Shown: positions 36,892-49,734, numbered from the stretch's first letter. The stretch is 64,000 nt of DNA from Bdellovibrionales bacterium (GCA_965217115.1 OZ244239.1:1361430-1425429); one strand, 5' to 3'. The notes: generated by a model not told the origin, from the sequence alone. A program made the numbers and translations.

Positions 36892-38139
36892 ATGAAAGAT
36901 TTTGTACATAGGCAAATTATTAAGAACATAGATTCAGTATCTGATTGGTTTCAACAAAAATCTTTGCACCCCTATCTCCCTTTCTATTCATCGTTTGATA
37001 TGAGGGACAGTGGTTATAAGATCACTAATGTGGATGCGAATCTTTTTCCTGCTGGATTTAATAATATTTGTGAGGTTGACCGGGATGAGGCGCCAAATTT
37101 GGTCTCTCAATATTTAGAGCGTTGTTACAATCTTCCAAAGAATGCTAAAATTGTGTTATTAACCGAAGAGCACACGAGAAACGCTTATTATTGGGAAAAT
37201 ATTTATCAAATATTGAATTTATTAGAAGGGTTAGGTCACAAGGTGAAATTATGTGTGCCTAAAAAATTGGAAAAAGACATTTATGTGCAATCGGCAACAG
37301 GTAGGGAGTTGATTATTGTGTCTTGGTGGCAATTAAAGAGAGAGGGTTTTGTCCCAGATGTTGTGATAAATAATAACGATTTTTCTTCTCACTATGAGGA
37401 ATGGGAAGCATCTTTGCAGGAAGAAGTGATGTTGGTGAACCCTCCCTGGCAACTTGGTTGGCGTTGGAGAAAGAAGAGCGATTATTTTTTCCATTTTAAT
37501 TCTTTAGCTGAAACCTTTGCTCAAATAATAGATGTGGACCCGTGGGTTTTTACGGTGAGAACAGAGGTTTTTTCTAATTTCTCGATCAATGAGAGAGGGA
37601 GTCGAGATAGTTTAGCGAGTATTATACAAACACAAATAGATGAACTCTCTGAGGACTATGCACAGAGAAAGATTGATAGAAAACCGACAGTTTTTGTAAA
37701 AAACAACTCTGGAACCTACGGCATGGGAATTATAGCTGTGAGTTCAGGAGAGGAGTTTTTGCAATTAAATAATAGAGCGCGGACGAAGATGAAGGCCTCC
37801 AAGGGAGGAGAGGGGATTGGGGAGGTGATTGTGCAAGAGGGGATACCGTCCTCTTTGTTAAGTGGACAGTCAGTGGCGGAGCCAGTTCTCTATCTTGTTG
37901 GTGAAGAGTTGGCAGGGGGGTTTTTGCGAACTCATAAGGATAAGGGAGTGGTTGATAATTTGAATAGTCCGGGGGCTGTGTATAAGCGACTTTGTGTTTC
38001 TGATTTAAAAATAAATGTGGAAGGTTCTCCATTGGAAAATGTTTATGGTTGGGTTGCTAAGCTGGGTGTGCTTGCTTTGGCAATGGAGATTAAAAGTAAA
38101 AAAATAAAAATCTGTTCTTGTTCTGAATTGGAAAATTAA
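36892..38139 (+). CDS. gshA: Glutamate--cysteine ligase, rare 'T. ferrooxidans-type' family (assigned from recalled motif)
   Basis: PFYSSFDMRDSGYKITNVDANLFPAGFNN matches my memory of the N-terminal signature of this GshA family (PF08886/TIGR02049). This needs an HMM check. Confidence 0.55.
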   Translation: MKDFVHRQIIKNIDSVSDWFQQKSLHPYLPFYSSFDMRDSGYKITNVDANLFPAGFNNICEVDRDEAPNLVSQYLERCYNLPKNAKIVLLTEEHTRNAYYWENIYQILNLLEGLGHKVKLCVPKKLEKDIYVQSATGRELIIVSWWQLKREGFVPDVVINNNDFSSHYEEWEASLQEEVMLVNPPWQLGWRWRKKSDYFFHFNSLAETFAQIIDVDPWVFTVRTEVFSNFSINERGSRDSLASIIQTQIDELSEDYAQRKIDRKPTVFVKNNSGTYGMGIIAVSSGEEFLQLNNRARTKMKASKGGEGIGEVIVQEGIPSSLLSGQSVAEPVLYLVGEELAGGFLRTHKDKGVVDNLNSPGAVYKRLCVSDLKINVEGSPLENVYGWVAKLGVLALAMEIKSKKIKICSCSELEN

Positions 38140-38209
38140 TTGACAAAAGTCTAGTAACTAAACTTTTCATCGGCTTCTTCCGAAAGAGTAGGTGATAAGG
38201 GAGGCCCCT

Positions 38210-38908
38210 ATGAAAAATGGGAGTATACGGTTTGTAGGTATTTTTGGATTTATATTTTTCTTTGCGATGGGGGTGAATATTGCCTTTAAATCGTGGAGTG
38301 GTTCTACCTATGTAAGTCAAAAAGTTTGGTTTGATGGAAAGCGCGATTTAGCTTCTGTTGGCAAGGCATTCGATTTTTCTAACTTAAGCGGAAATATCTT
38401 TCGTGGAGAAGCCAAATCTCAAATGATAGAGAGAGCTAGGGTGAGTGAGGGATTAGATCGAATTGGTGTGCAGTTGGGTCATTTTTTAGTAAGAACGAGT
38501 GAGGGTAAGAGAAATTTTATCTGTCGAGAGCATGGCCGCGTGGAAATGACTTTTAAAGCCAGTGGCTTTGCAATCAACGGTCGTAGGCCTGTGATGGTGG
38601 TGGATGGACTGTGCAATGTTGCCAATGATGTTAATTATATTTCGACGTTGTGGATTCCTGTGAAGGAGATCATTAAAAGTTCAGCAGGAGATGTTGAATT
38701 TAAATTTAGAGGAGAAGCTCCTGTGAGTGTGACCTTTGATGGAATGGGAGATAGTTGGCCAGAGAATTGGGCACTGTCTAGTGTGCGTTTTTATTCAGAA
38801 GGACAAAAAAAAGGAAAAGAGATGGTTGTTGAACAAAGGGATATCTTAAAGTTGCAAAAAAACAAACGCCTATCTCTTAATTGGAATCGCTGGATTCAGC
38901 AGAAATGA
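38210..38908 (+). CDS. Hypothetical membrane-anchored or exported protein
   Basis: The ATG at 38210 is preceded by AAGGGAGG. N-terminal hydrophobic segment FVGIFGFIFFFAMGVNIAF. Confidence 0.5.
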   Translation: MKNGSIRFVGIFGFIFFFAMGVNIAFKSWSGSTYVSQKVWFDGKRDLASVGKAFDFSNLSGNIFRGEAKSQMIERARVSEGLDRIGVQLGHFLVRTSEGKRNFICREHGRVEMTFKASGFAINGRRPVMVVDGLCNVANDVNYISTLWIPVKEIIKSSAGDVEFKFRGEAPVSVTFDGMGDSWPENWALSSVRFYSEGQKKGKEMVVEQRDILKLQKNKRLSLNWNRWIQQK

Positions 38909-38936
38909 CCAAGCAATGTTTAAACTTTTTACAGAG

Positions 38937-39003
38937 CGGCTTCACAGGAAGTGATCTGTCCATCTGCAATGGGAGCTGCGACATCACTAGACTCTGTGTT
39001 AAC
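38937..39003 (-). pseudogene. Truncated fragment of a paralog of the 153-aa secreted protein gene (39758..40219)
   Basis: This 67-nt stretch aligns with 39802..39868 with about six mismatches by eye. It encodes VNTESSDVAAPIADGQITSCE versus INTESNDVEALITDGQITSCE in the intact gene, and an in-frame stop lies just upstream. Confidence 0.7.
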
Positions 39004-39086
39004 TGTACGTCGTCAAAACATTTGGGAATAAACAAGATCCAGACTAATTAACAATTTCTTATTACCTTCTAGATCAAGTCAGCGAG

Positions 39087-39413
39087 CTATTTTTCTAATA
39101 TAGTACAAAAATCTTCATTATGATATACGTCAACAGCATAATAGAAAGAAATCTTATATATAGGCAATTCATAACGTGTTGGATTTTCATAAATTAAACC
39201 CTTAACAGTTATATTAAATCGATATAAGCTTTTAACATCAGAATTTTCAATGGAAAAGCGAGTAAAGAACCAGCGATCTATATTTTTATTTTCAGTCAAT
39301 AATTTGTTAACGGCGTACTTACGTACTTTGTCTTGACAATCTTTAGATGCCCCCTCTTTTGCAAAACTAACCACAGTACTAAGCAATACTAATAGTGCAA
39401 ATATTTTTTTCAT
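39087..39413 (-). CDS. Small secreted protein, unknown function (108 aa)
   Basis: Signal peptide MKKIFALLVLLSTVVSFAKEG. No motif recognised. Confidence 0.55.
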   Translation of the reverse strand: MKKIFALLVLLSTVVSFAKEGASKDCQDKVRKYAVNKLLTENKNIDRWFFTRFSIENSDVKSLYRFNITVKGLIYENPTRYELPIYKISFYYAVDVYHNEDFCTILEK

Positions 39414-39478
39414 AAAGCCCCTTTTTGTTAATTTTTCGAGAGAGTATCGCCAATTCTAAAACTTACAAGATAAAATCT

Positions 39479-39505
39479 ATAGATCGTTTAAAAAAAACGA
39501 TCTAT
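39479..39505. other. Perfect 10-bp inverted repeat (atagatcgtt-N7-aacgatctat) upstream of the 108-aa gene
   Basis: Read directly. It lies about 65-90 nt upstream of the ATG at 39413. It could be an operator or a weak terminator. Confidence 0.3.
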
Positions 39506-39678
39506 CGCCGCTGATTTTCTAGTTAATGGTATTATAAAGAAAATTTTTCGAATCCAAGACATATCTTTGTTCAAATACAATGGTTTTTTGTGACCGAAGG
39601 AAATAGTTTATGGATATACGTCATATTGAAAAAAAACATTAACAATCTAGTGATGAGTAAAAGATGCAGATAAAGCAC

Positions 39679-39706
39679 AAAAAAGAGGCTACCAATTGGC
39701 AACCTC
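39679..39706 (-). terminator. Rho-independent terminator of the 153-aa gene
   Basis: Minus strand reads gaggttgcc-aatt-ggtagcctc followed by tttttt. It lies about 50 nt after the stop at 39758. Confidence 0.65.
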
Positions 39707-39757
39707 GTCATCTTTTCCTAATTTTGATAAACTAGTTAGTTATTAAAACCTAAAATC

Positions 39758-40219
39758 TTAATTTGTATAAAACCAATCGAGACGATCAAAATCTTCAAAA
39801 TCGGTTTCACAGGAAGTGATCTGTCCATCTGTAATGAGAGCTTCGACATCATTAGATTCTGTGTTAATAAAAAAACCATAGATGTTCCCGCCAGCATCAA
39901 AGAGATACATTCTATAATTTCTGTCATGGGCAGTGTCTTTTATTGATCTAACCCAAAGTTCAGCCTTCTCAAGACTATAAGAAGCATATTTGAGTGCCTC
40001 TTCATAGCTAGTAACAGACACTCCCAGGCTAGCAGAGACCCCTTTTATAATCTGGGAGAGTGTTTTTTTATTTACTTTTGAATCCTTATTAAGGGTTTGT
40101 TCTTCAGATACAATCAAATCTTTCATTCGTGCAGTGTCAACAAGGTCGTCACCAAAGAGACATTTAGAAAAAGAGGGGACAGATGTGAGTAGAACCAATG
40201 CAATTAATATTTTTTTCAT
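39758..40219 (-). CDS. Small secreted protein, unknown function (153 aa)
   Basis: AAGGAGAA RBS and signal peptide MKKILIALVLLTSVPSFSK. A decayed paralog fragment lies at 38937..39003. Confidence 0.6.
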   Translation of the reverse strand: MKKILIALVLLTSVPSFSKCLFGDDLVDTARMKDLIVSEEQTLNKDSKVNKKTLSQIIKGVSASLGVSVTSYEEALKYASYSLEKAELWVRSIKDTAHDRNYRMYLFDAGGNIYGFFINTESNDVEALITDGQITSCETDFEDFDRLDWFYTN

Positions 40220-40409
40220 AATTGTTCTCCTTGAATTGTGTTCACTAAGAGAGGAACCTATTAATTTCTTTAATTAAACAAACTTCTATCTCCTTCCCGG
40301 AAATAAGCAATAAATTTATTTCGTTTGAAATATTTACAAAGCAGATCACTCACGACACTCGAATGTTTTTTTTGGATTTGTTCTTAAAAAAACAATGGCT
40401 TCTGAATTC

Positions 40410-40438
40410 AAAAAAAAAGGCCACTTTTTGCAGTGGCC
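40410..40438 (-). terminator. Rho-independent terminator (conserved cassette 3' flank, copy 1)
   Basis: Minus strand reads ggccact-gcaaaa-agtggcc followed by ttttttttt. Confidence 0.7.
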
Positions 40439-40483
40439 CCGTTATAATTCCTTCGCTCAGACGAGTGAGGACAATTTTAGAAT

Positions 40484-40954
40484 CTATTTCCTAATTTTCA
40501 GAGTTGTTAAGCAATAATACCTATCTAAGTCTCTATAATCAAGAACCTTTAGAGGGCGGCGGTCCATGGTTCTGACCTTTTCAAGTTTATAACAGGATAT
40601 TTTGTCATCAACAATAGATCTTCGATAGGCCACAACTCTTTTAGATTTTGTCCCTGATCTAATTTCAGTTACTAAATCATGGGATTTAATGAGTTTCCTT
40701 TGTTGTTCACCAGATTCAAACAAGGCCTTTGCATAGCGAGTGAAGTAAAGAGGTACTTTTCCACTTGCAACGATATCGTTTTCCTCGTCTTGAGTTACTC
40801 TGTCCAGGAGATCTTGAAAAGCCTTGCCAGAACCAAAGCTAGGGTACTCAGTAGCAGGGACTCTCTTTTCAACCGCGGTCGATGCTATTTTGGTCTTTAT
40901 TCCAGAACAGGAAACAATACTTAAGCTAAGCAAAAGAAGGGCAATTATTTTCAT
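40484..40954 (-). CDS. Lipoprotein, unknown function (156 aa)
   Basis: MKIIALLLLSLSIVSCSG contains the lipobox IVSC. Confidence 0.6.
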   Translation of the reverse strand: MKIIALLLLSLSIVSCSGIKTKIASTAVEKRVPATEYPSFGSGKAFQDLLDRVTQDEENDIVASGKVPLYFTRYAKALFESGEQQRKLIKSHDLVTEIRSGTKSKRVVAYRRSIVDDKISCYKLEKVRTMDRRPLKVLDYRDLDRYYCLTTLKIRK

Positions 40955-41126
40955 AAAAAATCCTTATGTTATATGTTAACAACATTAAGCATATCGGATT
41001 ATTTAAACTAAACTAACTAAACCAAGGTCTGTATGGAACCTCGAAGAGAAGAGGTGACTACAGAATCTATGCCTGGTGTTGAGAGGACACATTCCCTGGC
41101 GGTGCCATCGTCACTATAACGACTCT

Positions 41127-41171
41127 TTAAAAGAAGTTTAGTATAGCTAAGATTTGTTTGATTTCTTTCAT
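41127..41171 (-). pseudogene. 14-codon stub with strong RBS, probably the remnant of a former cassette gene
   Basis: AAGGAGAGATT-ATG then MKEIKQILAILNFF and a stop. The leader aligns with the leader of the 338-aa gene at 44068. A frame-shifted continuation remains open for about 40 codons. Confidence 0.3.
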
Positions 41172-41210
41172 AATCTCTCCTTGTGGTTTATTAACATCTT
41201 CGTTTTAGAA

Positions 41211-41279
41211 AGAATAGCTTGAAAAATTCAAACATCAGCATATATATTATTATTTATTACCACGAAAGGGTTATTTTCC
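41211..41279. promoter_or_regulatory. Conserved divergent promoter/operator block, copy 1
   Basis: Contains the 27-mer atcagcatatatattattatttattac (41234..41260), which is identical to 44136..44162. It lies directly upstream of the regulator ATG. Confidence 0.5.
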
Positions 41280-42074
41280 ATGACTGTTTTAGAATTTGAT
41301 AATTACAAAACCTATTTAAGGCATATCACCGATGTGGAGAAACGCGGGATTGTTAAAAAATTGGCCGATGCAGCAGGCTGTCAGAGATCTTATATTTCCC
41401 AGGTACTGAGTACACAGGTTCATCTCACATCTGACCATGTATATGGCATTGGGCTGTTTTTACACATGCAAGACTATGAGTTAGATTACTTTCTCTTACT
41501 TTTAGAGAAAGAGAAAGCCTCTTCCTTGCCCTATCGAGAAAAACTACAGGGGAAGTTAGCTCAAAGTAAAAGACATGCTCTGCGACTTTCCAAACAAATA
41601 AAAGAAGAAGAGACTCAGGTGATCCCTGAAGCCTATTATTCTGCGTGGTATTTTTCAGCCATCCACATAGCTACAAGCATAGATAAATTAAAGGATGAAG
41701 ATGATTTTTCCAAGTATCTGAGTCTTCCTAAAAAATTAGTGAGTAAAGTTCTCAGAGAGTTAGAGCGTTGGGGGCTTATTGAGTTTAATGGTGAATCTTG
41801 GAATTACGTAGGTTCGAGAGTCATCCATTTAAGAGATGATTCCTTCCTAAACCGTATCAATCATATTAATTGGAGAACACAAGCTCTATCACGTGCTCTG
41901 TCACCAATACAAGACGTTCATTATACGTCTGTGTTTACGATTTCTAAAAAAGATGTGGAAAGGATAAGAGAAAAACTTCTAAACTTCATCCATGAGCATA
42001 GAAAAGACGTTGATGCTTCCAGTTCAGAAACACTTGTCGCTTTTTGTTGCGATTATTTCGTGGCAGGTTCTTAG
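41280..42074 (+). CDS. Putative HTH regulator, DUF4423/TIGR02147-like (264 aa)
   Basis: The N-terminus YKTYLRHITDVEKRGIVKKLADAAGCQRSYISQVLSTQVHLTSDH...YFLLLLEKEKA resembles the TIGR02147 pattern as I recall it. An HMM check is needed. Confidence 0.5.
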   Translation: MTVLEFDNYKTYLRHITDVEKRGIVKKLADAAGCQRSYISQVLSTQVHLTSDHVYGIGLFLHMQDYELDYFLLLLEKEKASSLPYREKLQGKLAQSKRHALRLSKQIKEEETQVIPEAYYSAWYFSAIHIATSIDKLKDEDDFSKYLSLPKKLVSKVLRELERWGLIEFNGESWNYVGSRVIHLRDDSFLNRINHINWRTQALSRALSPIQDVHYTSVFTISKKDVERIREKLLNFIHEHRKDVDASSSETLVAFCCDYFVAGS

Positions 42075-42129
42075 ACATTCTAAGAACCCATGAACAAAAA
42101 AACTACAAATTGCAAAACGGAAACCCTAA

Positions 42130-42426
42130 CTATTCATATTCATCTAACTCTATAATTTCGGTCTTAACGATTTTATTGTCTATACCATCGGCCTTTAAAT
42201 TTTCACTAATATTATCTACGCAGTTTAGTTTATCTTTAGGCTCTTCGAGTTGATTGCACTTGTTGACCATCGCCTCGATCGCACTTGACCTAGCATTTCT
42301 CAGTCTTGTATTAGCACGCGTTTCATGGACGGCTGACAAGCCCTTTCTCCCCGAATTAACGAATTGACTTGGTAAAACCGCAATTGCAAGAAAAACGAAT
42401 GCGCCAGCTATGTATGCCATAACCAT
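42130..42426 (-). CDS. Small N-terminally membrane-anchored protein (98 aa)
   Basis: Strong RBS TAGGAGGAAAAA, one TM helix (AYIAGAFVFLAIAVL) and an acidic C-terminus. Confidence 0.55.
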   Translation of the reverse strand: MVMAYIAGAFVFLAIAVLPSQFVNSGRKGLSAVHETRANTRLRNARSSAIEAMVNKCNQLEEPKDKLNCVDNISENLKADGIDNKIVKTEIIELDEYE

Positions 42427-42582
42427 TTTTTCCTCCTAAGTAATAGAATAATTCATATTTTCGATTGGCACCATAGTATCATATTTTCATACTGTGTAGT
42501 TATTACTTTTTATCTAAGAGTAAATTTTACAATGCTAAAAGACGGGGAGCCACCCATTGCCCCACCGACTTAGTTATCCCAG

Positions 42583-42819
42583 CTATTTAGAAGCTTTGAA
42601 AAATTTGTCATTGGAATCAACATTTCGGAAATACTCCGTGTTTTTAAAGGGGCCTTTTTCTTTTGGTCCGTCATTGCAATTTTTAATAATGGCATCACGT
42701 CATGTACCAAAGGTATAAGAACATAGAGCTGACCCATTATACTCCACAACACAATCAGAACGAGCATGGGAAGAGATCGTTGAAAGTAAAATCGTTAAAC
42801 CTAATATTATATTTTTCAT
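42583..42819 (-). pseudogene. Small secreted Cys-containing protein interrupted by one in-frame TGA (codon 40)
   Basis: My own translation gives MKNIILGLTILLSTISSHARSDCVVEYNGSALCSYTFGT-TGA-RDAIIKNCNDGPKEKGPFKNTEYFRNVDSNDKFFKASK, then TAG. RBS AAGGAAA. The TGA is at 42700..42702. Confidence 0.45.
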
Positions 42820-42972
42820 TCCGTTTTCCTTGGTTTCTATTTGAGTCATTTCATTTTAAATTTCTGAGCAATTATAGGGAGGATCAACACCTTTAAGGAG
42901 AAACACTATTTAATAGTGTAAATTTTCTTACTCTTCGGGGGGGGCTTTAAAAAGCGGATATTTTCTGAACTC

Positions 42973-42998
42973 AAAAAAAAGGCCACTTTGTAGTGGCC
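42973..42998 (-). terminator. Rho-independent terminator (conserved cassette 3' flank, copy 2)
   Basis: Minus strand reads ggccact-acaa-agtggcc followed by tttttttt. Confidence 0.7.
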
Positions 42999-43051
42999 TC
43001 GTCAAAATCTCCTCGCTTAAATGAAAAAGCTAGTTTTTAGAGCCTAGTGAT

Positions 43052-44068
43052 TTAGTATTCCCAATCGTGGTAAGATTTACAATTCGTAAAATAAGCAATC
43101 TCAGTTGCTTTATTTCTAGGGCCTAATTTTGCAATAAGAAAAGGTCTGTCTTTGAAATACTCGATTGCAAACTTCTCCCCTCTTAAAGTGTTGTGTCCAA
43201 CATACATCTTCCCAATCATTTTTGCATCAGTATTTCTTGGCACTAATACTCTTCCAACTTTATCATGGTCCACTTTTTCAAGCATACTCAAATTAAATTT
43301 CTGAAAATTGTATGTCTGTTTAGAGTAGGGGATAAAACCAAAATATTGAGTGATTTGTGCCACTGTCGTATCTGATTTATTTGTAAAGATCACATAGGTT
43401 CTAGCTGTGTCAGTAGCATACCTCTGAGCAACACATCTTACAGATTGACCATGAATAGCTCCTTCATACATGTTCTCTAAACCGTCTAATGAAACTGCTT
43501 TTCCAATAACCCTTCGTATTTTATGCGAAGTAAACTCTTCAGATATAACTCTTCCCATTTCATAAAGGTATTCATGGAAGAGCAGTGCTGCTTGATTCAT
43601 TGTATCCAATGAGTTCCAAATCTCTCTATTGATGTAATATCTACCCCTGTCATCATCAGCATAAGCTAATTGCTCAATACGACAGTTGTTAGGAATGTTG
43701 CTACGAAGCTCTCCTGAGTCATAAGTGGAAGGAAGTTTATGATCTACAAAAATTGATTTAGATAATAATATATCTAAGTAGCTCAGGTCATTCTCCTCAA
43801 CTGGACGTTTATCGTTTGATGAATTTCGTAACTCTTGAAATAATATTTTGAAGTCAGCTCTTAAATTACCAGAGGCAGATTTCATCCCTATCCCCCTAGA
43901 TGACTCTTCGTACACATCAAGTAAAGCCGAATCTTGAATTTTACCATTTAAGTTTCGACAGACAACAGACATTCCCCCACCGCTAGAAATAGGTCCATTA
44001 ACAACTTCTGGAAAAGCCCAAGATGGAAGAATCGATAACATAAACGGTAAAAATAATAATAGTTTCAT
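43052..44068 (-). CDS. Secreted protein, unknown function (338 aa)
   Basis: AAGGAGAA RBS and signal peptide MKLLLFLPFMLSILPSWA. No motif recognised. Confidence 0.6.
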   Translation of the reverse strand: MKLLLFLPFMLSILPSWAFPEVVNGPISSGGGMSVVCRNLNGKIQDSALLDVYEESSRGIGMKSASGNLRADFKILFQELRNSSNDKRPVEENDLSYLDILLSKSIFVDHKLPSTYDSGELRSNIPNNCRIEQLAYADDDRGRYYINREIWNSLDTMNQAALLFHEYLYEMGRVISEEFTSHKIRRVIGKAVSLDGLENMYEGAIHGQSVRCVAQRYATDTARTYVIFTNKSDTTVAQITQYFGFIPYSKQTYNFQKFNLSMLEKVDHDKVGRVLVPRNTDAKMIGKMYVGHNTLRGEKFAIEYFKDRPFLIAKLGPRNKATEIAYFTNCKSYHDWEY

Positions 44069-44112
44069 ACTGTTCTCCTTATTTTAAATTCGTTAACACT
44101 CTCTGAAGAAAA

Positions 44113-44181
44113 GTTATAGCTTAAAAAGCCTAAAGATCAGCATATATATTATTATTTATTACTATAAAAAGGTTATTTTTC
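44113..44181. promoter_or_regulatory. Conserved divergent promoter/operator block, copy 2
   Basis: The same 27-mer occurs at 44136..44162, and the flanking sequence aligns with 41211..41279. Confidence 0.5.
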
Positions 44182-44442
44182 ATAACTATTTTTAGTTTTG
44201 AGGACTGTATAGCTTATTTGAAATATATCGTGGATATGGAAAAACGTGGTGTCATTAAAGAGTTAGCTAATACGCAGCCGTTGAAATTATGAGATTGGAC
44301 TGAGCCTAGGTAAGAGCAAGGTTTTACAAAAATTGTCACTGGTCATTTATTAAACAAAGTATCTTCTTCAACTGAGCGTCTCATCATACTTGAGAGTGGC
44401 AGTGATTTTGCTTTATATAGACTGATAGAGTTAATTAATTAA
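44182..44442 (+). pseudogene. Decayed paralog of the DUF4423/TIGR02147-like regulator
   Basis: The start codon is ATA instead of ATG. ITIFSFEDCIAYLKYIVDMEKRGVIKELANTQPLKL then stop aligns with MTVLEFDNYKTYLRHITDVEKRGIVKKLADAAG. A later piece, TERLIILESGSDFALYR, resembles LERWGLIEFNGESWNY in the intact copy, which implies an internal deletion. Confidence 0.65.
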
Positions 44443-44485
44443 CACGTAAGGCGACCAAATTTATACCAGTAGTTGAGGTTTTATT

Positions 44486-45769
44486 ATGATATTGAAATTA
44501 CTCATACTAATTACTTGTAGTTTAACAACAAAAGTATTTGCTGACATTACTAAGCCATGTCATTTTTCAGGATTAGAAAACATTAAGAGACCCTGGTATC
44601 CTAATAAAAATAAATCTTTTGAATTCCTCTACTCTTTTAGAGTTCTGAGAACAGCAAAAAAAGGGTTCCCTACAATTATATTTATTCCCGGAGGACCAGG
44701 ACAGACAAGTATGGATGGGCAACTAGGTATTGATAAAATTGTACCAAAAAATTGGGGACTAGTGTTAACAGACCCTCGTGGAGTTGGCTGTAATGATGTA
44801 GGTAAAGAATATCCCCCTGATTTTTTTCAGACGAATTATATTGCAGATGATATTCTTGCTCTGATTAAAAAAATAGCTATTCCTCACGATAAAATTATTC
44901 TTTATGGTCTTTCCTATGGAACAGTTGTTGCCACTAAAGTAGCTAGCCTCGCAAATAAGAGGGAACTTACTAAATTTAATGCTCTTTTCTTAGAAGGCAC
45001 ATTAGGTCGGTCCTTCAAAGGACAAGAATTTCTGGATCAATACGTTATAGAGTGGAGGGAATATTTCAATAGATTAGATGAATTAACGAAACAAATGCTA
45101 ATTAAAAACTTTCCTCTTTTATCAAGAAAATTTCGTAAAAACTGGTCTAATTTTTTATTAAGTGGTCTTATTTTTGGGGGGGCTCAAAAAAGGGAACATA
45201 CTTTGGACTACCCAATATCATTACTTTCATCGAATGAAGGTATTCTTGAGTTAGAAAAGAATTTCTTAATCACTGGCGAGAGGAATTCTTCTCAAAACAG
45301 CAATCAAATGTGGGAAAGCATATGGTGTGGAGAACTCAACAATGAGGGAAATACCTGGGAGTTGGGCTATGACATAGATTTTAATGCCCTTAGAATCTAT
45401 GAGAAAAAGGATCGCACCTTGTGTAACACAAACTATCGAGGTGAACGTTATGACTCTTCCTTTGAGTATGTACGAGAAAAGGTTTTCTACTTTCAAGGGG
45501 GGGCTGATCCTGCGACTCCTCTTTGGCAGGCAGAATACCATTTCGAAAATTTGAATGGCAGTGGAGAGAGTATTTTTTTTACTTTCCCTGAAATGGGACA
45601 TAGTCCCCTTGAAGTTTTAAAGATGTTTGAATCTACTTGTTTATCAGATTTCTTAAACTCAGTCCTCTCTGAAAAAAACACAAATCAAATATTAGAGAAA
45701 TGTGGTTTTAATGTAAGAACTAAATATAAAAAGAGGAATCCAAATGAGAGAGGTGTTGGTCCAAGTTAA
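44486..45769 (+). CDS. Secreted alpha/beta-hydrolase (prolyl-aminopeptidase-like, S33-type)
   Basis: Signal peptide, IFIPGGPGQTS, and nucleophile elbow GLSYGT. Confidence 0.65.
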   Translation: MILKLLILITCSLTTKVFADITKPCHFSGLENIKRPWYPNKNKSFEFLYSFRVLRTAKKGFPTIIFIPGGPGQTSMDGQLGIDKIVPKNWGLVLTDPRGVGCNDVGKEYPPDFFQTNYIADDILALIKKIAIPHDKIILYGLSYGTVVATKVASLANKRELTKFNALFLEGTLGRSFKGQEFLDQYVIEWREYFNRLDELTKQMLIKNFPLLSRKFRKNWSNFLLSGLIFGGAQKREHTLDYPISLLSSNEGILELEKNFLITGERNSSQNSNQMWESIWCGELNNEGNTWELGYDIDFNALRIYEKKDRTLCNTNYRGERYDSSFEYVREKVFYFQGGADPATPLWQAEYHFENLNGSGESIFFTFPEMGHSPLEVLKMFESTCLSDFLNSVLSEKNTNQILEKCGFNVRTKYKKRNPNERGVGPS

Positions 45770-45863
45770 AGGTTTAATTCGTTCTACGACTAAAGTTATA
45801 GACTGATCTTTATTAATTAGACAGTTTAATTTGCATTTCTGTCACTAAAATAATTTTGTCATA

Positions 45864-46181
45864 ATGAGTACTATGATTCGGTCATTTGTGGATTATAGAA
45901 GAACTATTAGTCATGAGTTTTTTCATGCTCAGTATTTTTTAAACCCTAAGTATCGGAGTATTGTAGATAAATATTGGGAAGGTCTTGATGCTGAGAAAAA
46001 AGAAAAATTTAAAAAAAATCTACCTCCCGTATATGACAGAGATAATGATTTTCTAATCAAGAATGGGTTTCAGGCATATCTTTTATCGGGAAACCTTCCT
46101 CAATCGATGGCAAGTTTTTTTTCGATCCATCAAATTGCTTTAGGAGTAGAGTTGCTGAAGTCTTTGCCGATTGAAAAATAG
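45864..46181 (+). CDS. Small HExxH-containing ORF (105 aa), possibly a gene fragment
   Basis: SHEFFH contains an HExxH motif. No RBS and no signal peptide. Confidence 0.3.
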   Translation: MSTMIRSFVDYRRTISHEFFHAQYFLNPKYRSIVDKYWEGLDAEKKEKFKKNLPPVYDRDNDFLIKNGFQAYLLSGNLPQSMASFFSIHQIALGVELLKSLPIEK

Positions 46182-46359
46182 CCTATTTTTGTTATAAGTT
46201 GCATATAACTTCGTCAGTGGCTTTATCTCTCAAGAATTAAAAAGCGAAAAACCAAGTAATATTGAGTAGATATACCTCTGGGCAAGGTGGCATGGACAAT
46301 GCTTTATTAAGGGGAGAGGATTCACAAAAAAACCTTGTGATAAAGACTAGGGAGTCGTT

Positions 46360-46755
46360 ATGAAAAAAAATGGAATAATCTTGATCTTGATGCTGTCATC
46401 TCTTTCAGCATCTGCAGTTACTATTCATCATGCCTGTGGTTCGGATAATCATAGTACTTATGTAACAAAGGCCCTCGAAAAATCCAGTCAGTCTTCTTTA
46501 ATGGGACTTGCTGTATGCCAGGATGTAACAACAGGAGAAGTGCCTTGCGTGGTAAAGGTTACGAAAAATGAAAATACGAAAAATGAAAAGTTGAATATTT
46601 ATGCGACTGATGCTGAAAATCATGAATCTTGTAGATACACAGCATTTCATTTGTTGAGAGACCAACAGACAGATGTAAGAGTTGACTATGTTTATACAAA
46701 CAAGAGTAGAGAGGTAGAGGCTGAGGACACGATCTATGCTACCAGTGTACGATAA
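46360..46755 (+). CDS. Small secreted protein (131 aa)
   Basis: GGGAG RBS and signal peptide MKKNGIILILMLSSLSASA. Confidence 0.55.
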   Translation: MKKNGIILILMLSSLSASAVTIHHACGSDNHSTYVTKALEKSSQSSLMGLAVCQDVTTGEVPCVVKVTKNENTKNEKLNIYATDAENHESCRYTAFHLLRDQQTDVRVDYVYTNKSREVEAEDTIYATSVR

Positions 46756-46905
46756 ACTATATTCTTGTTTTCAAAAAAAGGATGGGGGTCGGGTCAGGGA
46801 AATGGGGAGTACCGAAACATTACACAATACTCCTGTTTTCAAGTATTTTATCTCTATCTTGTATATAATCGCACTGGATTTATAATAAGGAAGAAAGGGT
46901 TTATA

Positions 46906-47322
46906 ATGATTAAAATACAACACCTATCTGTGTCGGTGAATAATCCAAGAAAAATGGCTGAAGCATTAGCTGAAGTGACAAAAGGAAAAGCTGAAAAGTT
47001 TTTATCGAAAAATATGACAGAAGCCTGGGTTTGTATTTGGGATGAAAAAACAAACCACCTTATTGAGTTTTTACCGAATGATTACTTAATGCACCCAACC
47101 GATTACGGTGCTGACTTTAAACAATTACCACAAAAACAAAATTTTAATTCAACGCATGTTCAGTTAGAAGTAGAAACTCCACTGGAAAGCATTATTTTTA
47201 TGGCAAATAAATACGGTTTTGAACACAGATTTAGACCTAATCGTGGTGGACCACTCTATGATGTTTGGTTTGAAAAGGAGTTTTTAATTGAATTTGTTTC
47301 AGATGAAATCCGAAACTTATAG
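46906..47322 (+). CDS. Hypothetical cytoplasmic protein (138 aa), possibly VOC/glyoxalase-fold
   Basis: The ATG at 46906 follows AAGGAAGAAAGGG. The IQHLSVSV start resembles a VOC beta-1 strand, which is weak evidence. The track start at 46765 is unsupported. Confidence 0.45.
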   Translation: MIKIQHLSVSVNNPRKMAEALAEVTKGKAEKFLSKNMTEAWVCIWDEKTNHLIEFLPNDYLMHPTDYGADFKQLPQKQNFNSTHVQLEVETPLESIIFMANKYGFEHRFRPNRGGPLYDVWFEKEFLIEFVSDEIRNL

Positions 47323-47465
47323 ATAGGTCATGATCATTTGTCACTAACTGCTTCACTAGAGCTTAATACAAAAAGCTCTAAAGGGCATGACAGGGGTAAA
47401 GTTTCAGTAGAGTTAAAGGCTGCCCTTAAATCACTAGGTAGATGACCAACATCTACTCAGAGAGA

Positions 47466-47541
47466 CAGTGAAAATTTAATGACAAAAAAATGGCCAATCT
47501 AAATGATTGGCCATTTCTTATTGCTAGTAATGAATAACTGG
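47466..47541. repeat. 77-bp direct repeat, copy 1 (contains a 12-bp-stem palindrome)
   Basis: cagtgaaaatttaatgacaaaaaaatggccaatctaaatgattggccatttcttattgctagtaatgaataactgg is nearly identical to 48457..48533. On the minus strand the hairpin is followed by a T-run, so it is terminator-like. Confidence 0.85.
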
Positions 47542-47712
47542 AATCGGAATTGGTGGCGGTTCTGGCTCCTTGACTGCAATTTGCAAGATTGGCAATCCCT
47601 CGAAACATAAGTCCCTTTGATCTTAAACGCCTGATAAGAGCCGAGGGTCGATTTTTCTTCCTCCCGATTTTGACACCACTTTTCTTAGCATACTTCAAAC
47701 CATTTGGTTTTT
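47542..47712 (-). pseudogene. Serine recombinase (resolvase/invertase) C-terminal relic
   Basis: GLKYAKKSGVKIGRKKNRPSALIRRLRSKGLMFRGIANLANCS resembles the end of the E-helix plus the HTH of small serine recombinases (A[KR]xxGVKxGR...). An in-frame TAA lies directly upstream and there is no catalytic domain. Confidence 0.5.
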
Positions 47713-47834
47713 ATATGGTGTCAATCTGACTTTAAATAGAGCCAATAAGCAATGAATTAGGCTCCATTACAGTTGATTGTTGGCTTCATTTTTGCTGTTT
47801 AATATTTTCAAATATTACTCTAGGGGGAGAAGTT

Positions 47835-48362
47835 ATGAAAAAGTTTTTGTGTTATTTGTTAATATTATTATCTACTGGGAGCGTTGCGTTAAGCACTGTC
47901 GTTGATGTTGAAGTCTTAAATTTAAGTCCTCCAAAATATGCTGAGTTTAAAAAACTACCATTGAGTGTCCAAAATTTAATGCTTCAAGAAGCAAAATTTC
48001 GGAAGAAGGCAAAGGAGATAAGAAGAAAAAAGGAAGAAAAAACGAAGTTTCAGATATTGTCTCTTACTTTTTCAAACAGACACGATCCTAGATGTGATGA
48101 CGATGATTCAGGTAATGATTCACGCTCTTGTGTGCCTAGATGTACTTGGAGACGTTCTGACGGGTCATGTATCTCACATGGAGCAGACTTTTGTAGCAAA
48201 AATGCGTCTTGTTCACCGAACTGTACTTGGAGAATCTCTGACGGATCATGTAACTCATATGATGAAGATTTTTGTGGTGAAGATGCTGTTTGTTCACCAA
48301 ATTGTACATGGAGAGGTTCTGACGGATCATGTAACTCATATGATTCAGATGTTTGTTTTTAG
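47835..48362 (+). CDS. Secreted protein with three tandem Cys-rich repeats (175 aa)
   Basis: GGGGGAG RBS, a signal peptide, a Lys-rich linker, then three units of C-x3-C-x8-C-x7-C (CxPxCTWRxSDGSCxSxxxDFC). Confidence 0.65.
   Translation: MKKFLCYLLILLSTGSVALSTVVDVEVLNLSPPKYAEFKKLPLSVQNLMLQEAKFRKKAKEIRRKKEEKTKFQILSLTFSNRHDPRCDDDDSGNDSRSCVPRCTWRRSDGSCISHGADFCSKNASCSPNCTWRISDGSCNSYDEDFCGEDAVCSPNCTWRGSDGSCNSYDSDVCF
48129..48359 (+). repeat. 81-nt tandem repeat (about 2.9 copies) inside the Cys-rich gene
   Basis: The units start at 48129, 48210 and 48291 (tgt tca ccn aay tgt acn tgg aga...). Confidence 0.85.
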
Positions 48363-48456
48363 ATAACTTTAAAAAAAATATAAATGAGTTCCAGTTGAAA
48401 GAGCTGGAGCTTGTCGAGTAAAACGAAGGGTTCAAGAGAGATCGCCTTTCAAATCA

Positions 48457-48533
48457 CAGTGAAAATTTAATGACAAAAAAAATGGCCAATCTAAATGATT
48501 GGCCATTTCTTATTGCTAGTAACGAATAACTGG
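48457..48533. repeat. 77-bp direct repeat, copy 2
   Basis: See copy 1. It differs by one extra A and one T/C substitution. Confidence 0.85.
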
Positions 48534-48832
48534 CTTTGTAGTGTAAAAAATTCATCAGTATTTTACGCTCAAAGGGCCTTTGTTTTAATTTGAATAAGAA
48601 AGTAACCAGATACGACAATTGTTTGTCTACGAACTTATCAAAATAAGTTAGAAACACTCTTAAAACACCAAAAGTGAGCTCATAACAAACATAAAATTAA
48701 ATAATTATAGATACTTAGAGCTATGGCTGGAACTTTGCTTTACTTACAAATGAAACAAAGTTCTTATTTTCAAAGAAAGGAGAGGCCGGAGCAAGGAAAT
48801 AGGACGATACCAGTTTATGAGGAATTATTAAA

Positions 48833-49429
48833 ATGAAAGGTTTAGTTTTATCCAGTTTACTTTTTATTCTACCCATTTTTAGCTATGGAAACTGTCCAGT
48901 CCCTAAATTACAAGATGAATTTATACTGAACGAGAGAATCATAAGCTTAACTACAACCCTTGATCTAGAAGATGATAATGGAAAATTTGGTACTATTAAA
49001 GAAAAACTCATTAGCCTAGCAAGGTCTTTCACCTATACAGGTCCTTCAAATGAGACTATTGCAACGGCCAAACAAAAGCTTTTTTCTTGGGGGGTACAGA
49101 TTGATGTTTTTGATTGTGCACGCAAGAAAATAGGCACGATTAAAGAAAATATTCTAAAATCTATGTTTAAAACTTATACAACTTACAGTATTGAAGACGC
49201 TAGCGGCGAAATAGTTGCAATATCAAAAAAGGTTAGTTGGCTCGCAACGTCCTTCTCATTAAAAACTCCTGAAGGTAAAGATATCGCTAAAATGAAACGT
49301 CCCGTGATTAACTTTTTTGGTGATAAGTGGAAAATGCAAATTGAGAACCATAAACAAGTAGACCCTCGGCTATATATTATGATTGCTGCCTACAAAACGA
49401 GTGCAGATAATCAGAGATCTTCAGATTAA
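48833..49429 (+). CDS. Secreted protein, possibly LURP-one/YxjI-like (Tubby C-terminal-like fold)
   Basis: Signal peptide plus repeated K-K-x-F/S-W...beta-hairpin pattern (AKQKLFSWGVQIDVFD, ISKKVSWLATSFSLKT). The family assignment is from memory. Confidence 0.45.
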   Translation: MKGLVLSSLLFILPIFSYGNCPVPKLQDEFILNERIISLTTTLDLEDDNGKFGTIKEKLISLARSFTYTGPSNETIATAKQKLFSWGVQIDVFDCARKKIGTIKENILKSMFKTYTTYSIEDASGEIVAISKKVSWLATSFSLKTPEGKDIAKMKRPVINFFGDKWKMQIENHKQVDPRLYIMIAAYKTSADNQRSSD

Positions 49430-49483
49430 AGTTTCCTAGATAAATAATCAGTTCTCAGCCGATAAGGCTAGGAGATGATGAAA

Positions 49484-49511
49484 AGCTCACTGTAAAGTGG
49501 GCTTTTTCTTT
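49484..49511 (+). terminator. Rho-independent terminator
   Basis: agctcact-gtaa-agtgggct (8 bp with one G-U pair) followed by ttttcttt. Confidence 0.65.
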
Positions 49512-49599
49512 GCGCCCCATGATCAGCTTATCATCAATTTACCAGGTTTTAGAACTACCGATGTTTTGGGTTTTCAAGGATTTTAGAGGTTCAATGAAA

Positions 49600-49675
49600 T
49601 GGTAGGGCCTGCCGGAGTCGAACCGACGACATCTACCTTGTAAGGGTAGCGCTCTACCAACTGAGCTAAGGCCCT
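49600..49675 (-). tRNA. tRNA-Val (anticodon UAC), CCA encoded
   Basis: The reverse complement AGGGCCTTAGCTCAGTTGGTAGAGCGCTACCCTTACAAGGTAGATGTCGTCGGTTCGACTCCGGCAGGCCCTACCA folds by hand into a cloverleaf with a 7-bp acceptor stem, D arm GCTC/GAGC, anticodon loop CTTACAA and T arm GTCGG/CCGGC. Confidence 0.93.
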
Positions 49676-49734
49676 AAAAAGAAAGGACAAGTTAACTAGA
49701 AAACAACTATTTGTCCAACACAAACCAAGAGAAT

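What the first reader, a model, noticed from the sequence alone, without database searches (positions are those of the whole stretch)
40400..44442. Two paralogous scaffolds (regulator, divergent leader and 3'UTR/terminator) carry unrelated secreted cargo
Module 1 (40400-42074) and module 2 (42963-44442) share three non-coding or regulatory pieces. First, they share an AT-rich divergent promoter block with an identical 27-mer, atcagcatatatattattatttattac, at 41234..41260 and 44136..44162, plus the 5' end of a DUF4423/TIGR02147-like HTH gene. Second, the opposite-strand leader and RBS are related: cat-aatctctcctt... at 41169 versus cat-actgttctcctt... at 44066. Third, they share a 3'UTR of about 60 nt with terminator, ttctgaaNtcaaaaaaaaggccacttt.t.agtggcc.cgt.a.aat..cctcgct, at 40400..40465 and 42963..43025. 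The genes held between these flanks are unrelated: a 156-aa lipoprotein in one and a 338-aa secreted protein in the other. In module 1 the ancestral cargo start is reduced to a 14-codon stub at 41127..41171 and the regulator is intact. In module 2 the cargo is intact and the regulator is dead (ATG changed to ATA, an early stop, and an internal deletion). This resembles a cassette system in which conserved flanks allow cargo replacement by recombination. It could equally be a diversifying family of regulator-controlled secreted-factor loci. I do not know of a described system with this layout.
Basis: seen in the sequence. Interest (0 to 1): 0.68.

Follow-up and report, generated by a model that had tools for sequence, protein, structure and literature searches.

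The report
Decayed duplicate of regulator–secreted-protein gene pair
Two neighbouring copies of a conserved two-gene unit (a DNA-binding regulator facing a secreted-protein gene) have each lost one of the two genes, so the shared promoter and terminator pieces are most likely leftovers of an old local duplication, not parts of a cassette-swapping system.

Summary
Two of the three shared pieces are real. A 152-nt promoter/regulator-start block is 72% identical between the copies and contains an exact 27-mer. A 58-nt intrinsic-terminator block is 81% identical. The claimed leader/RBS similarity is no better than chance.

The 338-aa "cargo" is not arbitrary. In all 7 loci from other Bdellovibrionota that encode the closest regulator relatives (48-58% identity), the regulator faces a homologue of this protein. 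All carry a signal peptide followed by GPISSGGG. More broadly, 29 of 45 TIGR02147 regulators have such a neighbour, and other genomes hold tandem arrays of intact pairs.

The 27-mer is conserved between species (26/26 nt in one locus whose regulator is only 53% identical), so it is a functional promoter/operator element.

Best reading: a lineage-specific duplication of the pair followed by reciprocal decay. Copy 1 kept the regulator and lost the secreted-protein gene; an ORFan lipoprotein gene now sits between the old start and the terminator. Copy 2 kept the secreted-protein gene and the operator, and its regulator is a 36-codon relic.

The cassette-exchange idea is not supported. Regulation itself is inferred, not shown. 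The source genome could not be scanned outside this window.

The parts
40400..40465 (-). Terminator block, copy 1. It is an intrinsic terminator (stem GGGGCCACT/AGTGGCCTT at 40440-40417, then T9) that now lies downstream of the 156-aa lipoprotein gene.
   Evidence: 81% identical to 42963-43017 (E 7e-7). Terminator scan. Fold gives a 9-bp hairpin.
40484..40954 (-). ORFan lipoprotein gene of 156 aa (signal peptide with lipobox IVSC, own AGGA ribosome-binding site). It occupies the place of the lost secreted-protein paralogue.
   Evidence: ORF. No Pfam or NCBIfam family. In 1.84 billion representative proteins it matches only itself and two repetitive proteins. It is not a member of the 338-aa protein family.
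41127..41171 (-). 14-codon stub ORF with a strong Shine-Dalgarno sequence (AAGGAG). It sits at the position equivalent to the start of the 338-aa gene and is probably the remnant of the lost paralogue's translation start.
   Evidence: Sequence. Start lies 63 nt from the 27-mer, against 68 nt in module 2. The sequence similarity itself is not significant.
41214..41365 (.). Shared block, copy 1. It holds the divergent promoter region, the 27-mer (41234-41260), the predicted sigma-70 promoter TTGAAA-18-TATATT (41219-41248) and the first 29 codons of the regulator.
   Evidence: Conserved between species.
41280..42074 (+). Intact TIGR02147/DUF4423 regulator of 264 aa, with an N-terminal HTH and a winged helix.
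   Evidence: Pfam DUF4423 43.4 bits against a cut-off of 30. TIGR02147 45.9 bits against a cut-off of 50, aligned over the full length. AlphaFold2 model pLDDT 91.6 with a winged-helix element at residues 140-176. Top PDB fold hits are MarR/ArsR/Rrf2 regulators, all weak.
42963..43025 (-). Terminator block, copy 2 (stem GAGGCCACT/AGTGGCCTT at 43000-42979, then T8), downstream of the 338-aa gene.
43052..44068 (-). 338-aa secreted protein (signal peptide, then GPISSGGGMSVVC). It is the conserved divergent partner of this regulator subfamily.
   Evidence: Homologues lie next to the closest regulator relatives in L001, L002, L003, L005, L060, L061 and L062 (blastp/tblastn E 9e-21 to 5e-7; family HMM). 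The alignment covers the full length.
44116..44267 (.). Shared block, copy 2. It holds the promoter region with the exact 27-mer (44136-44162), a weakened -35 hexamer (TTAAAA) and the first codons of the dead regulator.
44182..44292 (+). Regulator pseudogene relic. It has ATA in place of ATG, 36 codons, then TGA. Only codons 1-31 are recognisable.
   Evidence: tblastn gives 43% identity over 30 aa (E 4e-5). The regulator profile matches positions 1-31 (E 2.5e-7). Nothing further aligns.

Best explanation
The region holds two copies of one conserved two-gene unit of Bdellovibrionota. The unit is a TIGR02147/DUF4423 helix-turn-helix regulator transcribed divergently from a secreted protein that has a GPISSGGG motif after its signal peptide. 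Between the two genes lies an AT-rich promoter/operator of about 26 nt.

The unit, including its terminator, was duplicated locally in this lineage, and the two copies then decayed in complementary ways. Copy 1 (40400-42074) kept the regulator and lost the body of its secreted-protein gene. Only the ribosome-binding site and start remain, as a 14-codon stub, and an unrelated ORFan lipoprotein gene now lies between that stub and the old terminator. Copy 2 (42963-44292) kept the secreted-protein gene, its terminator and the operator, but its regulator is reduced to a 36-codon relic.

Inferred mechanism: the single surviving regulator binds the 27-mer. At 41234-41260 the 27-mer overlaps the -10 of the regulator's own promoter, which would give autoregulation and possibly control of the stub-lipoprotein transcript. 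At 44136-44162 the regulator would act in trans to control the 338-aa gene. That would explain why the module-2 operator is perfectly preserved next to a dead gene.

Shown here: the homology of the blocks, the conserved pairing, the conservation of the 27-mer between species, and the state of each gene. Inferred: the duplication as the origin of the two copies, DNA binding, the direction of regulation, and transcription of the lipoprotein gene from the orphaned promoter.
For: (1) The two significant homology blocks are collinear and in the same orientation in both modules: terminator, gene, start, promoter block, regulator N-terminus.

(2) All 7 loci encoding the closest regulator relatives (48-58% identity) have a homologue of the 338-aa protein divergently adjacent, 41-120 nt away. 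An iterated family profile finds a divergent partner for 22 of 49 TIGR02147 regulators. The [ST]GGG motif is present in 29 of 45 divergent neighbours against 7 of 587 background ORFs.

(3) Intact tandem arrays of the unit exist elsewhere, in the orientation inferred as ancestral here. L016 has gene-regulator-gene-regulator, and L038 and L039 have 2-3 units.

(4) The 27-mer is a selected element. L003 has 26/26 identical nt although its regulator is 53% identical. The 29 columns around the 27-mer are 90% (L062) and 83% (L001) identical to the window, against 51-63% in the adjacent coding DNA. Within the window it is 27/27 inside a block that is 66% identical elsewhere (P about 6e-4).

(5) The -10 of the predicted regulator promoter lies inside the 27-mer in both copies.

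(6) The relic and the intact regulator share D-x-EKRG, which the other species' regulators lack. This suggests a lineage-specific duplication.

(7) The terminator block is absent from the other species' loci, so its two copies are related within this lineage.

(8) The regulator model contains a winged helix.
Against: No remnant of a 338-aa-type gene can be detected in module 1 beyond the equivalent position of the start. The loss there is therefore inferred, not seen.

The two copies are barely more alike (71% over 160 nt) than copy 1 is to the L001 locus from another genome (68%). The duplication is thus old, or its date is blurred by pseudogene decay, and an independently acquired second copy cannot be excluded from that block alone.

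A second, unrelated 78-nt terminator-bearing repeat (97% identical) lies downstream of two unrelated genes 5 kb away. Terminator blocks may therefore spread or be homogenised on their own in this island.

How the lipoprotein gene came to lie between the stub and the terminator is unresolved. A 9-nt direct repeat brackets it, but removing the bracketed segment does not extend the homology.

No binding or expression data exist. The source genome outside the window could not be searched.
Confidence: 0.7

Rival explanations
1. Cassette exchange. The promoter/leader and the terminator would be fixed flanks of an acceptor scaffold into which unrelated secreted-protein genes are swapped by recombination.
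For: Two unrelated genes (156 aa and 338 aa) do lie between homologous promoter and terminator blocks. A 9-nt direct repeat AGAATCTAT brackets the 583-nt segment that carries the lipoprotein gene; the post-hoc chance of such a bracket is about 0.02. A second pair of unrelated genes nearby also shares a terminator block.
Against: In all 7 loci encoding the closest regulator relatives the scaffold holds the same gene family. Only two scaffolds are present in 64 kb. No recombinase domain was found among the island proteins scanned. The flanks are an ordinary promoter/operator and an ordinary terminator, with no attC-like or other recombination-site structure. Homology does not reach the ORF boundaries: it ends 27-35 nt before the stop codons. 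Removing the bracketed segment does not extend the homology.
Confidence: 0.07
2. The two blocks have independent origins. The promoter blocks would be alike only because both descend from the same conserved operator-bearing unit, the second copy being an ancient paralogue or separately acquired. The terminator blocks would be alike because a short terminator-bearing repeat, or a gene-conversion patch, spread within the island. In this reading there was no single duplication that included the terminator.
For: Copy 1 against copy 2 (71%) is about as diverged as copy 1 against L001 (68%). The island contains other patchy repeats. One is the 78-nt terminator repeat at 47465-47541 / 48456-48533, 97% identical, behind unrelated genes. 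Another is a 66-nt patch, 91% identical, shared by the otherwise diverged tandem paralogues at 39087-39413 and 39758-40219.
Against: Both blocks are collinear and in the same orientation in both modules, which is unlikely for independent events when each block has only two copies in 64 kb. The two regulator N-termini share the derived D-x-EKRG motif. Anciently diverged tandem units elsewhere (L016, regulators 45% identical) have different intergenic sequences, whereas here the operator is identical.
Confidence: 0.2
3. The resemblance between the AT-rich intergenic regions is due to chance.
For: The region is AT-rich (GC 33-37%). The leader/RBS similarity is indeed at chance level.
Against: blastn E 1e-17 and 7e-7 within the window. 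0 of 100 shuffles contain the 27-mer even with 3 mismatches. The 27-mer is conserved between species.
Confidence: 0.01

Closest known systems
Divergently transcribed regulator-target gene pairs with a shared intergenic operator (for example tetR-tetA, and many MarR-type and LysR-type pairs)
   Same: The arrangement is head-to-head, with an intergenic region of about 100 nt. A conserved cis element overlaps the -10 of the regulator's own predicted promoter. The regulator has a winged-helix DNA-binding fold.
   Different: The regulator belongs to the uncharacterised TIGR02147/DUF4423 family. No paper in the searched library describes its function. The target is a family-less secreted protein. 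No clear dyad symmetry is seen in the 27-mer. Binding and the sign of regulation are untested.
Gene duplication followed by reciprocal (complementary) degeneration of the copies
   Same: There are two collinear copies of a two-gene unit, and each retains a different functional gene. One pseudogene relic is demonstrable. Intact tandem arrays are present in relatives.
   Different: The second loss (the secreted-protein gene in copy 1) is inferred from position only. The vacated slot is now occupied by an unrelated ORFan gene, which simple decay does not explain.
Integron-type or other gene-cassette arrays
   Same: Unrelated ORFs lie between similar flanking non-coding sequences.
   Different: No integrase or recombinase domain was found among the island proteins scanned. 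No attC-like sites are present. There are only two units. The flanks are a promoter and a terminator. In other genomes the same flanks always hold the same gene family.
Short intergenic hairpin repeats (REP/BIME-like or terminator-bearing repeats)
   Same: The blocks are 58-78 nt long, contain a GC-rich hairpin, are repeated within a few kb and lie behind unrelated genes.
   Different: Each block has only two copies in 64 kb. No terminal inverted repeats or target duplications were identified. The blocks look like plain intrinsic terminators.

Membership tests
TIGR02147 / DUF4423 regulator family (ORF 41280-42074) | Match to Pfam DUF4423 above the gathering score | tested here: met
   43.4 bits against a cut-off of 30; residues 104-260 match profile positions 7-163 of 165.
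TIGR02147 / DUF4423 regulator family (ORF 41280-42074) | Match to NCBIfam TIGR02147 above its curated cut-off | tested here: inconclusive
   45.9 bits against a cut-off of 50. The alignment is nevertheless end-to-end (residues 1-242 to profile 2-248 of 272; E 4.7e-12). Homologues in public sets are named TIGR02147 by their sources.
TIGR02147 / DUF4423 regulator family (ORF 41280-42074) | Helix-turn-helix / winged-helix DNA-binding fold | tested here: met
   AlphaFold2 model pLDDT 91.6 with helix-helix-strand-strand at residues 140-176. Top Foldseek PDB hits are MarR/ArsR/Rrf2 regulators, but all are weak (E >= 0.03).
Secreted GP.SSGGG protein family paired with TIGR02147 regulators (ORF 43052-44068) | Signal peptide followed by G-P-x-(S/T)-S-G-G-G, and homology over the body of the protein | tested here: met
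   The motif is at residues 25-32. blastp to the neighbours of the closest regulator relatives gives E 9e-21 to 1e-15. The family HMM gives 424 bits. The alignment covers the full length.
Secreted GP.SSGGG protein family paired with TIGR02147 regulators (ORF 40484-40954, lipoprotein) | The same motif and homology | tested here: not met
   No motif is present. hhalign probability is 0.3%. The iterated HMM gives E 1.2.
Gene-cassette / integron-like exchange system | A site-specific recombinase encoded nearby | tested here: not met
   Pfam scans of 19 proteins from 35-54 kb found none. Small ORFs without family hits cannot be excluded.
Gene-cassette / integron-like exchange system | Different cargo between the same flanks in different genomes or at several places | tested here: not met
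   All 7 loci with the closest regulator relatives carry the same gene family next to the same operator. There are only 2 scaffolds in the window. The rest of the source genome is not testable with these tools.
Tandem duplication with reciprocal decay | Collinear homologous blocks in the same order and orientation | tested here: met
   The terminator block and the promoter/regulator-start block are in the same order and orientation, 814 and 1153 nt apart.
Tandem duplication with reciprocal decay | A recognisable relic of the lost gene in each copy | tested here: inconclusive
   The regulator relic in copy 2 is significant. In copy 1 only the position of the Shine-Dalgarno sequence and start codon is equivalent, and no sequence relic is detectable.
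Intrinsic (Rho-independent) terminator | A GC-rich hairpin followed by a T-run on the strand of the upstream gene | tested here: met
   Both copies have a 9-bp stem with 5 GC pairs followed by T8-T9 on the minus strand. Termination itself is not tested.

The most novel reading that the evidence does not exclude
The TIGR02147 regulator, the ~26-nt AT-rich operator and the GP.SSGGG secreted protein may form a widespread, undescribed regulatory unit of predatory Bdellovibrionota that multiplies in tandem. When a copy loses its secreted-protein gene, its orphaned operator-controlled promoter and terminator could be re-used by a newly arrived ORFan gene. Here that would be the 156-aa lipoprotein, bracketed by a 9-nt direct repeat. 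This would recruit a new secreted factor into the regulon, a one-off natural 'promoter/terminator capture' rather than a dedicated cassette machine.
Probability: 0.2. Interest if true: 0.5.

Novelty: new member of a known kind. Interest (0 to 1): 0.3.

Why it matters
The finding itself has an ordinary evolutionary cause: duplication and complementary decay inside a fast-changing, low-GC island of secreted ORFan genes.

The by-products are more useful than the finding. They give an uncharacterised regulator family (TIGR02147/DUF4423, abundant in predatory bacteria) a candidate target gene family. They also give it a candidate operator, conserved at the nucleotide level between genomes whose proteins are only about 50% identical. 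Both can be tested directly by EMSA or DAP-seq and by a knockout. If the regulator proves to control secreted factors, that would bear on how Bdellovibrio-like predators control their secretome.

Tried and rejected
(1) Locating the source genome so that scaffolds could be counted genome-wide. Exact-protein look-ups found no contig. The genome-contig scan returned only relatives. Cluster look-up gave singletons without names.

(2) A metagenome scan for the degenerate operator TCAGYAYATWTATTATTAYTTAT. It gave 17 hits, all in AT-rich DNA with no regulator or partner gene nearby, so they are chance matches.

(3) Looking for a relic of the 338-aa gene in module 1. tblastn, a family HMM on all three frames and local DNA alignment with shuffles all found nothing.

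(4) Testing whether the lipoprotein is a remote member of the partner family. The result was negative.

(5) Testing whether a small lipoprotein gene downstream of the partner gene is ancestral. L003 has a 152-aa lipoprotein there, but it is not similar to the window's, and L001, L002 and L005 have none.

The by-eye match of the relic tail to the winged-helix region is not significant: 664 of 2000 shuffles score as well.

(7) Testing an insertion model with target duplication for the lipoprotein segment. The bracketing 9-mer has a post-hoc P of about 0.02, but excising the segment does not extend the homology to module 2.

(8) A structure prediction of the 338-aa protein. With only 3 sequences the model was useless (pLDDT 39), so no fold search was run on it. 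Profile searches of PDB, Pfam and NCBIfam gave nothing.

(9) Rfam. The only hit in the region was a sub-threshold isrD match (E 0.13) on the terminator hairpin, which was rejected.

(10) Looking for the terminator block in the other species' loci. It is absent.

Full report
WHAT IS THERE. The region lies in a low-GC stretch (33-37% against about 40%) between gshA (36892-38139) and tRNA-Val (49600-49675). The stretch is filled with small ORFs that have signal peptides and no family assignment. Within it, the ORF at 41280-42074 is a full-length DUF4423/TIGR02147 protein. Its AlphaFold2 model is confident (pLDDT 91.6) and shows an N-terminal helical HTH region and a winged helix at residues 140-176. 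The top PDB fold matches are MarR/ArsR/Rrf2 regulators, though all are weak.

CHECK OF THE OBSERVATION. The exact 27-mer occurs only at 41234 and 44136. It sits inside an ungapped 152-nt block that is 72% identical between the modules (E 1e-17). Outside the 27-mer the block is 66% identical, so a run of 27 identities is unexpected (P about 6e-4).

The 3' blocks 40400-40457 and 42963-43017 are 81% identical (E 7e-7). Both are minus-strand intrinsic terminators.

The module-2 regulator is a relic. It has ATA for ATG and a stop after 36 codons, and only profile positions 1-31 are recognisable. The claimed leader/RBS similarity is at chance level, and the claimed internal deletion cannot be demonstrated. 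The two cargo proteins are unrelated.

THE KEY COMPARATIVE RESULT. The regulator has relatives of 48-58% identity in metagenomic Bdellovibrionales contigs. Flanking DNA could be read for seven of these: L001, L002, L003 (the same contig as L004), L005, L060, L061 and L062. In every one, the gene transcribed divergently from the regulator, 41-120 nt away, is a homologue of the window's 338-aa protein. All share a signal peptide followed by GPISSGGGM.VVC. No other flanking gene is shared with the window.

The pattern extends further. An iterated profile finds a divergent partner of this family for 22 of 49 TIGR02147 regulators in 41 loci. The [ST]GGG motif occurs in the first 110 residues of 29 of 45 divergent neighbours, against 7 of 587 other ORFs. 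Several genomes carry intact tandem arrays of the unit. L016 has gene-regulator-gene-regulator in the same orientation as the window, and L038 and L039 have 2-3 units.

The 338-aa gene is therefore the regular partner of this regulator, not interchangeable cargo. The window contains exactly one member of each family plus one regulator relic.

THE 27-MER IS A CONSERVED CIS ELEMENT. In L003 the same 26 nt (ATCAGCATATATATTATTATTTATTA) lie at the same place upstream of a regulator that is only 53% identical. L062 and L001 differ at 3-5 of the 29 aligned positions, and L005 and L060 keep a recognisable version. The adjacent coding DNA is only 51-63% identical.

A predicted sigma-70 promoter for the regulator (TTGAAA-18-TATATT) has its -10 hexamer inside the element in both window copies. 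In copy 2 the -35 hexamer is weakened (TTAAAA) and the gene is dead, yet the 27-mer is untouched. This points to selection for control of the 338-aa gene rather than for expression of the relic. This last step is an inference.

ORIGIN OF THE TWO MODULES. The two significant blocks are collinear in both modules. The terminator block is not found in the other species' loci. The relic and the intact regulator share D-x-EKRG, which the other species' regulators lack. Together with the tandem arrays seen elsewhere, the simplest history has three steps. First, a local duplication of terminator, partner gene, operator and regulator. Second, loss of the regulator in copy 2. Third, loss of the partner gene in copy 1.

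Two cautions apply. Copy 1 against copy 2 (71%) is hardly closer than copy 1 against L001 (68%). And nothing of a partner gene survives in copy 1 except a strong Shine-Dalgarno sequence and ATG at the equivalent distance from the 27-mer.

THE LIPOPROTEIN GENE. The 156-aa ORF has a lipobox and its own ribosome-binding site. It is an ORFan: a search of 1.84 billion representative proteins returned only itself and two repetitive proteins. It now lies between the stub and the old terminator.

How it got there is open. No conserved second gene follows the partner gene in the other species' loci. A 9-nt direct repeat (AGAATCTAT, at 40479 and 41062) brackets the gene; the post-hoc chance of such a bracket is about 0.02. 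Excising the bracketed segment does not extend the homology to module 2. The gene may be transcribed from the orphaned divergent promoter, because only a weak hairpin (41044-41022) intervenes. This is untested.

RIVALS. Cassette exchange is not supported. The cargo family is the same in every genome examined, only two scaffolds are present, no recombinase was found, and there are no recombination-site features. A more serious rival is that the terminator similarity is independent of the promoter similarity. The island contains other patchy repeats: a 78-nt terminator block, 97% identical, behind two unrelated genes, and a 66-nt patch, 91% identical, in otherwise diverged tandem paralogues. Collinearity argues against this rival, but it keeps about 0.2.

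LIMITS. The source genome is not in the searchable collections, so the number of scaffolds genome-wide and any strain polymorphism are unknown. A metagenome scan for the operator gave only chance hits. The partner protein has no Pfam, NCBIfam or PDB relative, and its structure model failed. The searched literature says nothing on the function of TIGR02147/DUF4423. All statements about binding and regulation are inferences from architecture and conservation.

VERDICT. It is a decayed duplicate of a conserved regulator/secreted-protein pair. The finding is ordinary in kind. Its useful side product is a candidate operator and a candidate target family for an uncharacterised regulator family of predatory bacteria.

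Noticed in passing
Loci L001-L042 and L060-L062 (for example L016:6572-10792, L039:4334-11655, L038:374-3822): Across Bdellovibrionota, TIGR02147 regulators are typically paired head-to-head with signal-peptide proteins that carry G-P-x-(S/T)-S-G-G-G just after the signal peptide. This holds for 29 of 45 neighbours against 7 of 587 background ORFs. The protein bodies range from 120 to 560 aa. Some genomes have tandem arrays of 2-3 such pairs. The partner family has no Pfam, NCBIfam or PDB match, and no paper was found.
   Followed up: partly
window 47465-47541 and 48456-48533: A 78-nt repeat, 97% identical, contains a bidirectional terminator-like hairpin (AAAAAAATGGCCAATC...GATTGGCCATTTCTT). 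One copy lies downstream of each of two unrelated genes (46765-47322 and 47835-48362). This is a second case in the island of unrelated genes sharing a 3' block.
   Followed up: partly
window 38937-39002 vs 39802-39867; ORFs 39087-39413 (-) and 39758-40219 (-): Two adjacent small secreted-protein genes are tandem paralogues. They share the RBS and signal-peptide start (48% aa identity over 31 residues) and a 66-nt patch that is 91% identical, while the middle is unalignable. In the 108-aa copy the patch lies downstream of the stop codon, so it is a relic. The patch may be a gene-conversion tract.
   Followed up: partly
window 48141-48356, inside ORF 47835-48362: Three tandem 81-nt repeats, about 81% identical, encode a Cys-rich 27-aa unit (C-T-W-R-x-S-D-G-S-C-x-S-...-D-F-C) in a 175-aa secreted ORFan.
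   Followed up: no
window 38200-49700: A low-GC island (33-37% against about 40%) lies between gshA and tRNA-Val (49600-49675, minus strand), with lon beyond. It consists almost entirely of small signal-peptide ORFs without any family, plus an alpha/beta hydrolase (44486-45769). No integrase was seen.
   Followed up: partly
window 40479-40487 and 41062-41070: An exact 9-nt direct repeat, AGAATCTAT, brackets the 583-nt segment that carries the ORFan lipoprotein gene. One copy overlaps the gene's stop codon, near the edge of the terminator block. The post-hoc chance of such a bracket is about 0.02. Excising the segment does not extend the homology with module 2.
   Followed up: yes
L006:9890-9946, L022:9930-9985, L009:150-232, L016:7570-7617: Upstream of more distant TIGR02147 genes, directly before the start codon, there are inverted repeats of the type (A/T)TTAC-GAATTAT-GTAA(A/T). 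L006, for example, has ATATATTAC-GAATTAT-GTAATATAT. These look like dyad operators of autoregulated dimeric regulators. The window's subfamily shows only an imperfect ATTAC-N9-GTTAT that spans the end of the 27-mer.
   Followed up: no
window 43052-44068 (residues 158-169 of the protein) and homologues in L001, L002, L003, L060: The motif N-x-A-A-L-x-x-H-E-x-x-Y is conserved in the close subfamily (H165, E166, Y169). One member weakly matches Pfam PF18894, a putative phage metallopeptidase (E 7e-4). This is a possible but unproven hydrolase-like site.
   Followed up: no
window 42130-42426 (-) and 42700-42849 (-): Two small genes lie between the two modules: a 98-aa protein with an N-terminal membrane helix and a strong RBS, and a secreted two-Cys peptide of about 39-49 aa. 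Neither has a family or a counterpart after module 2. It is unclear whether they were part of the duplicated unit.
   Followed up: no
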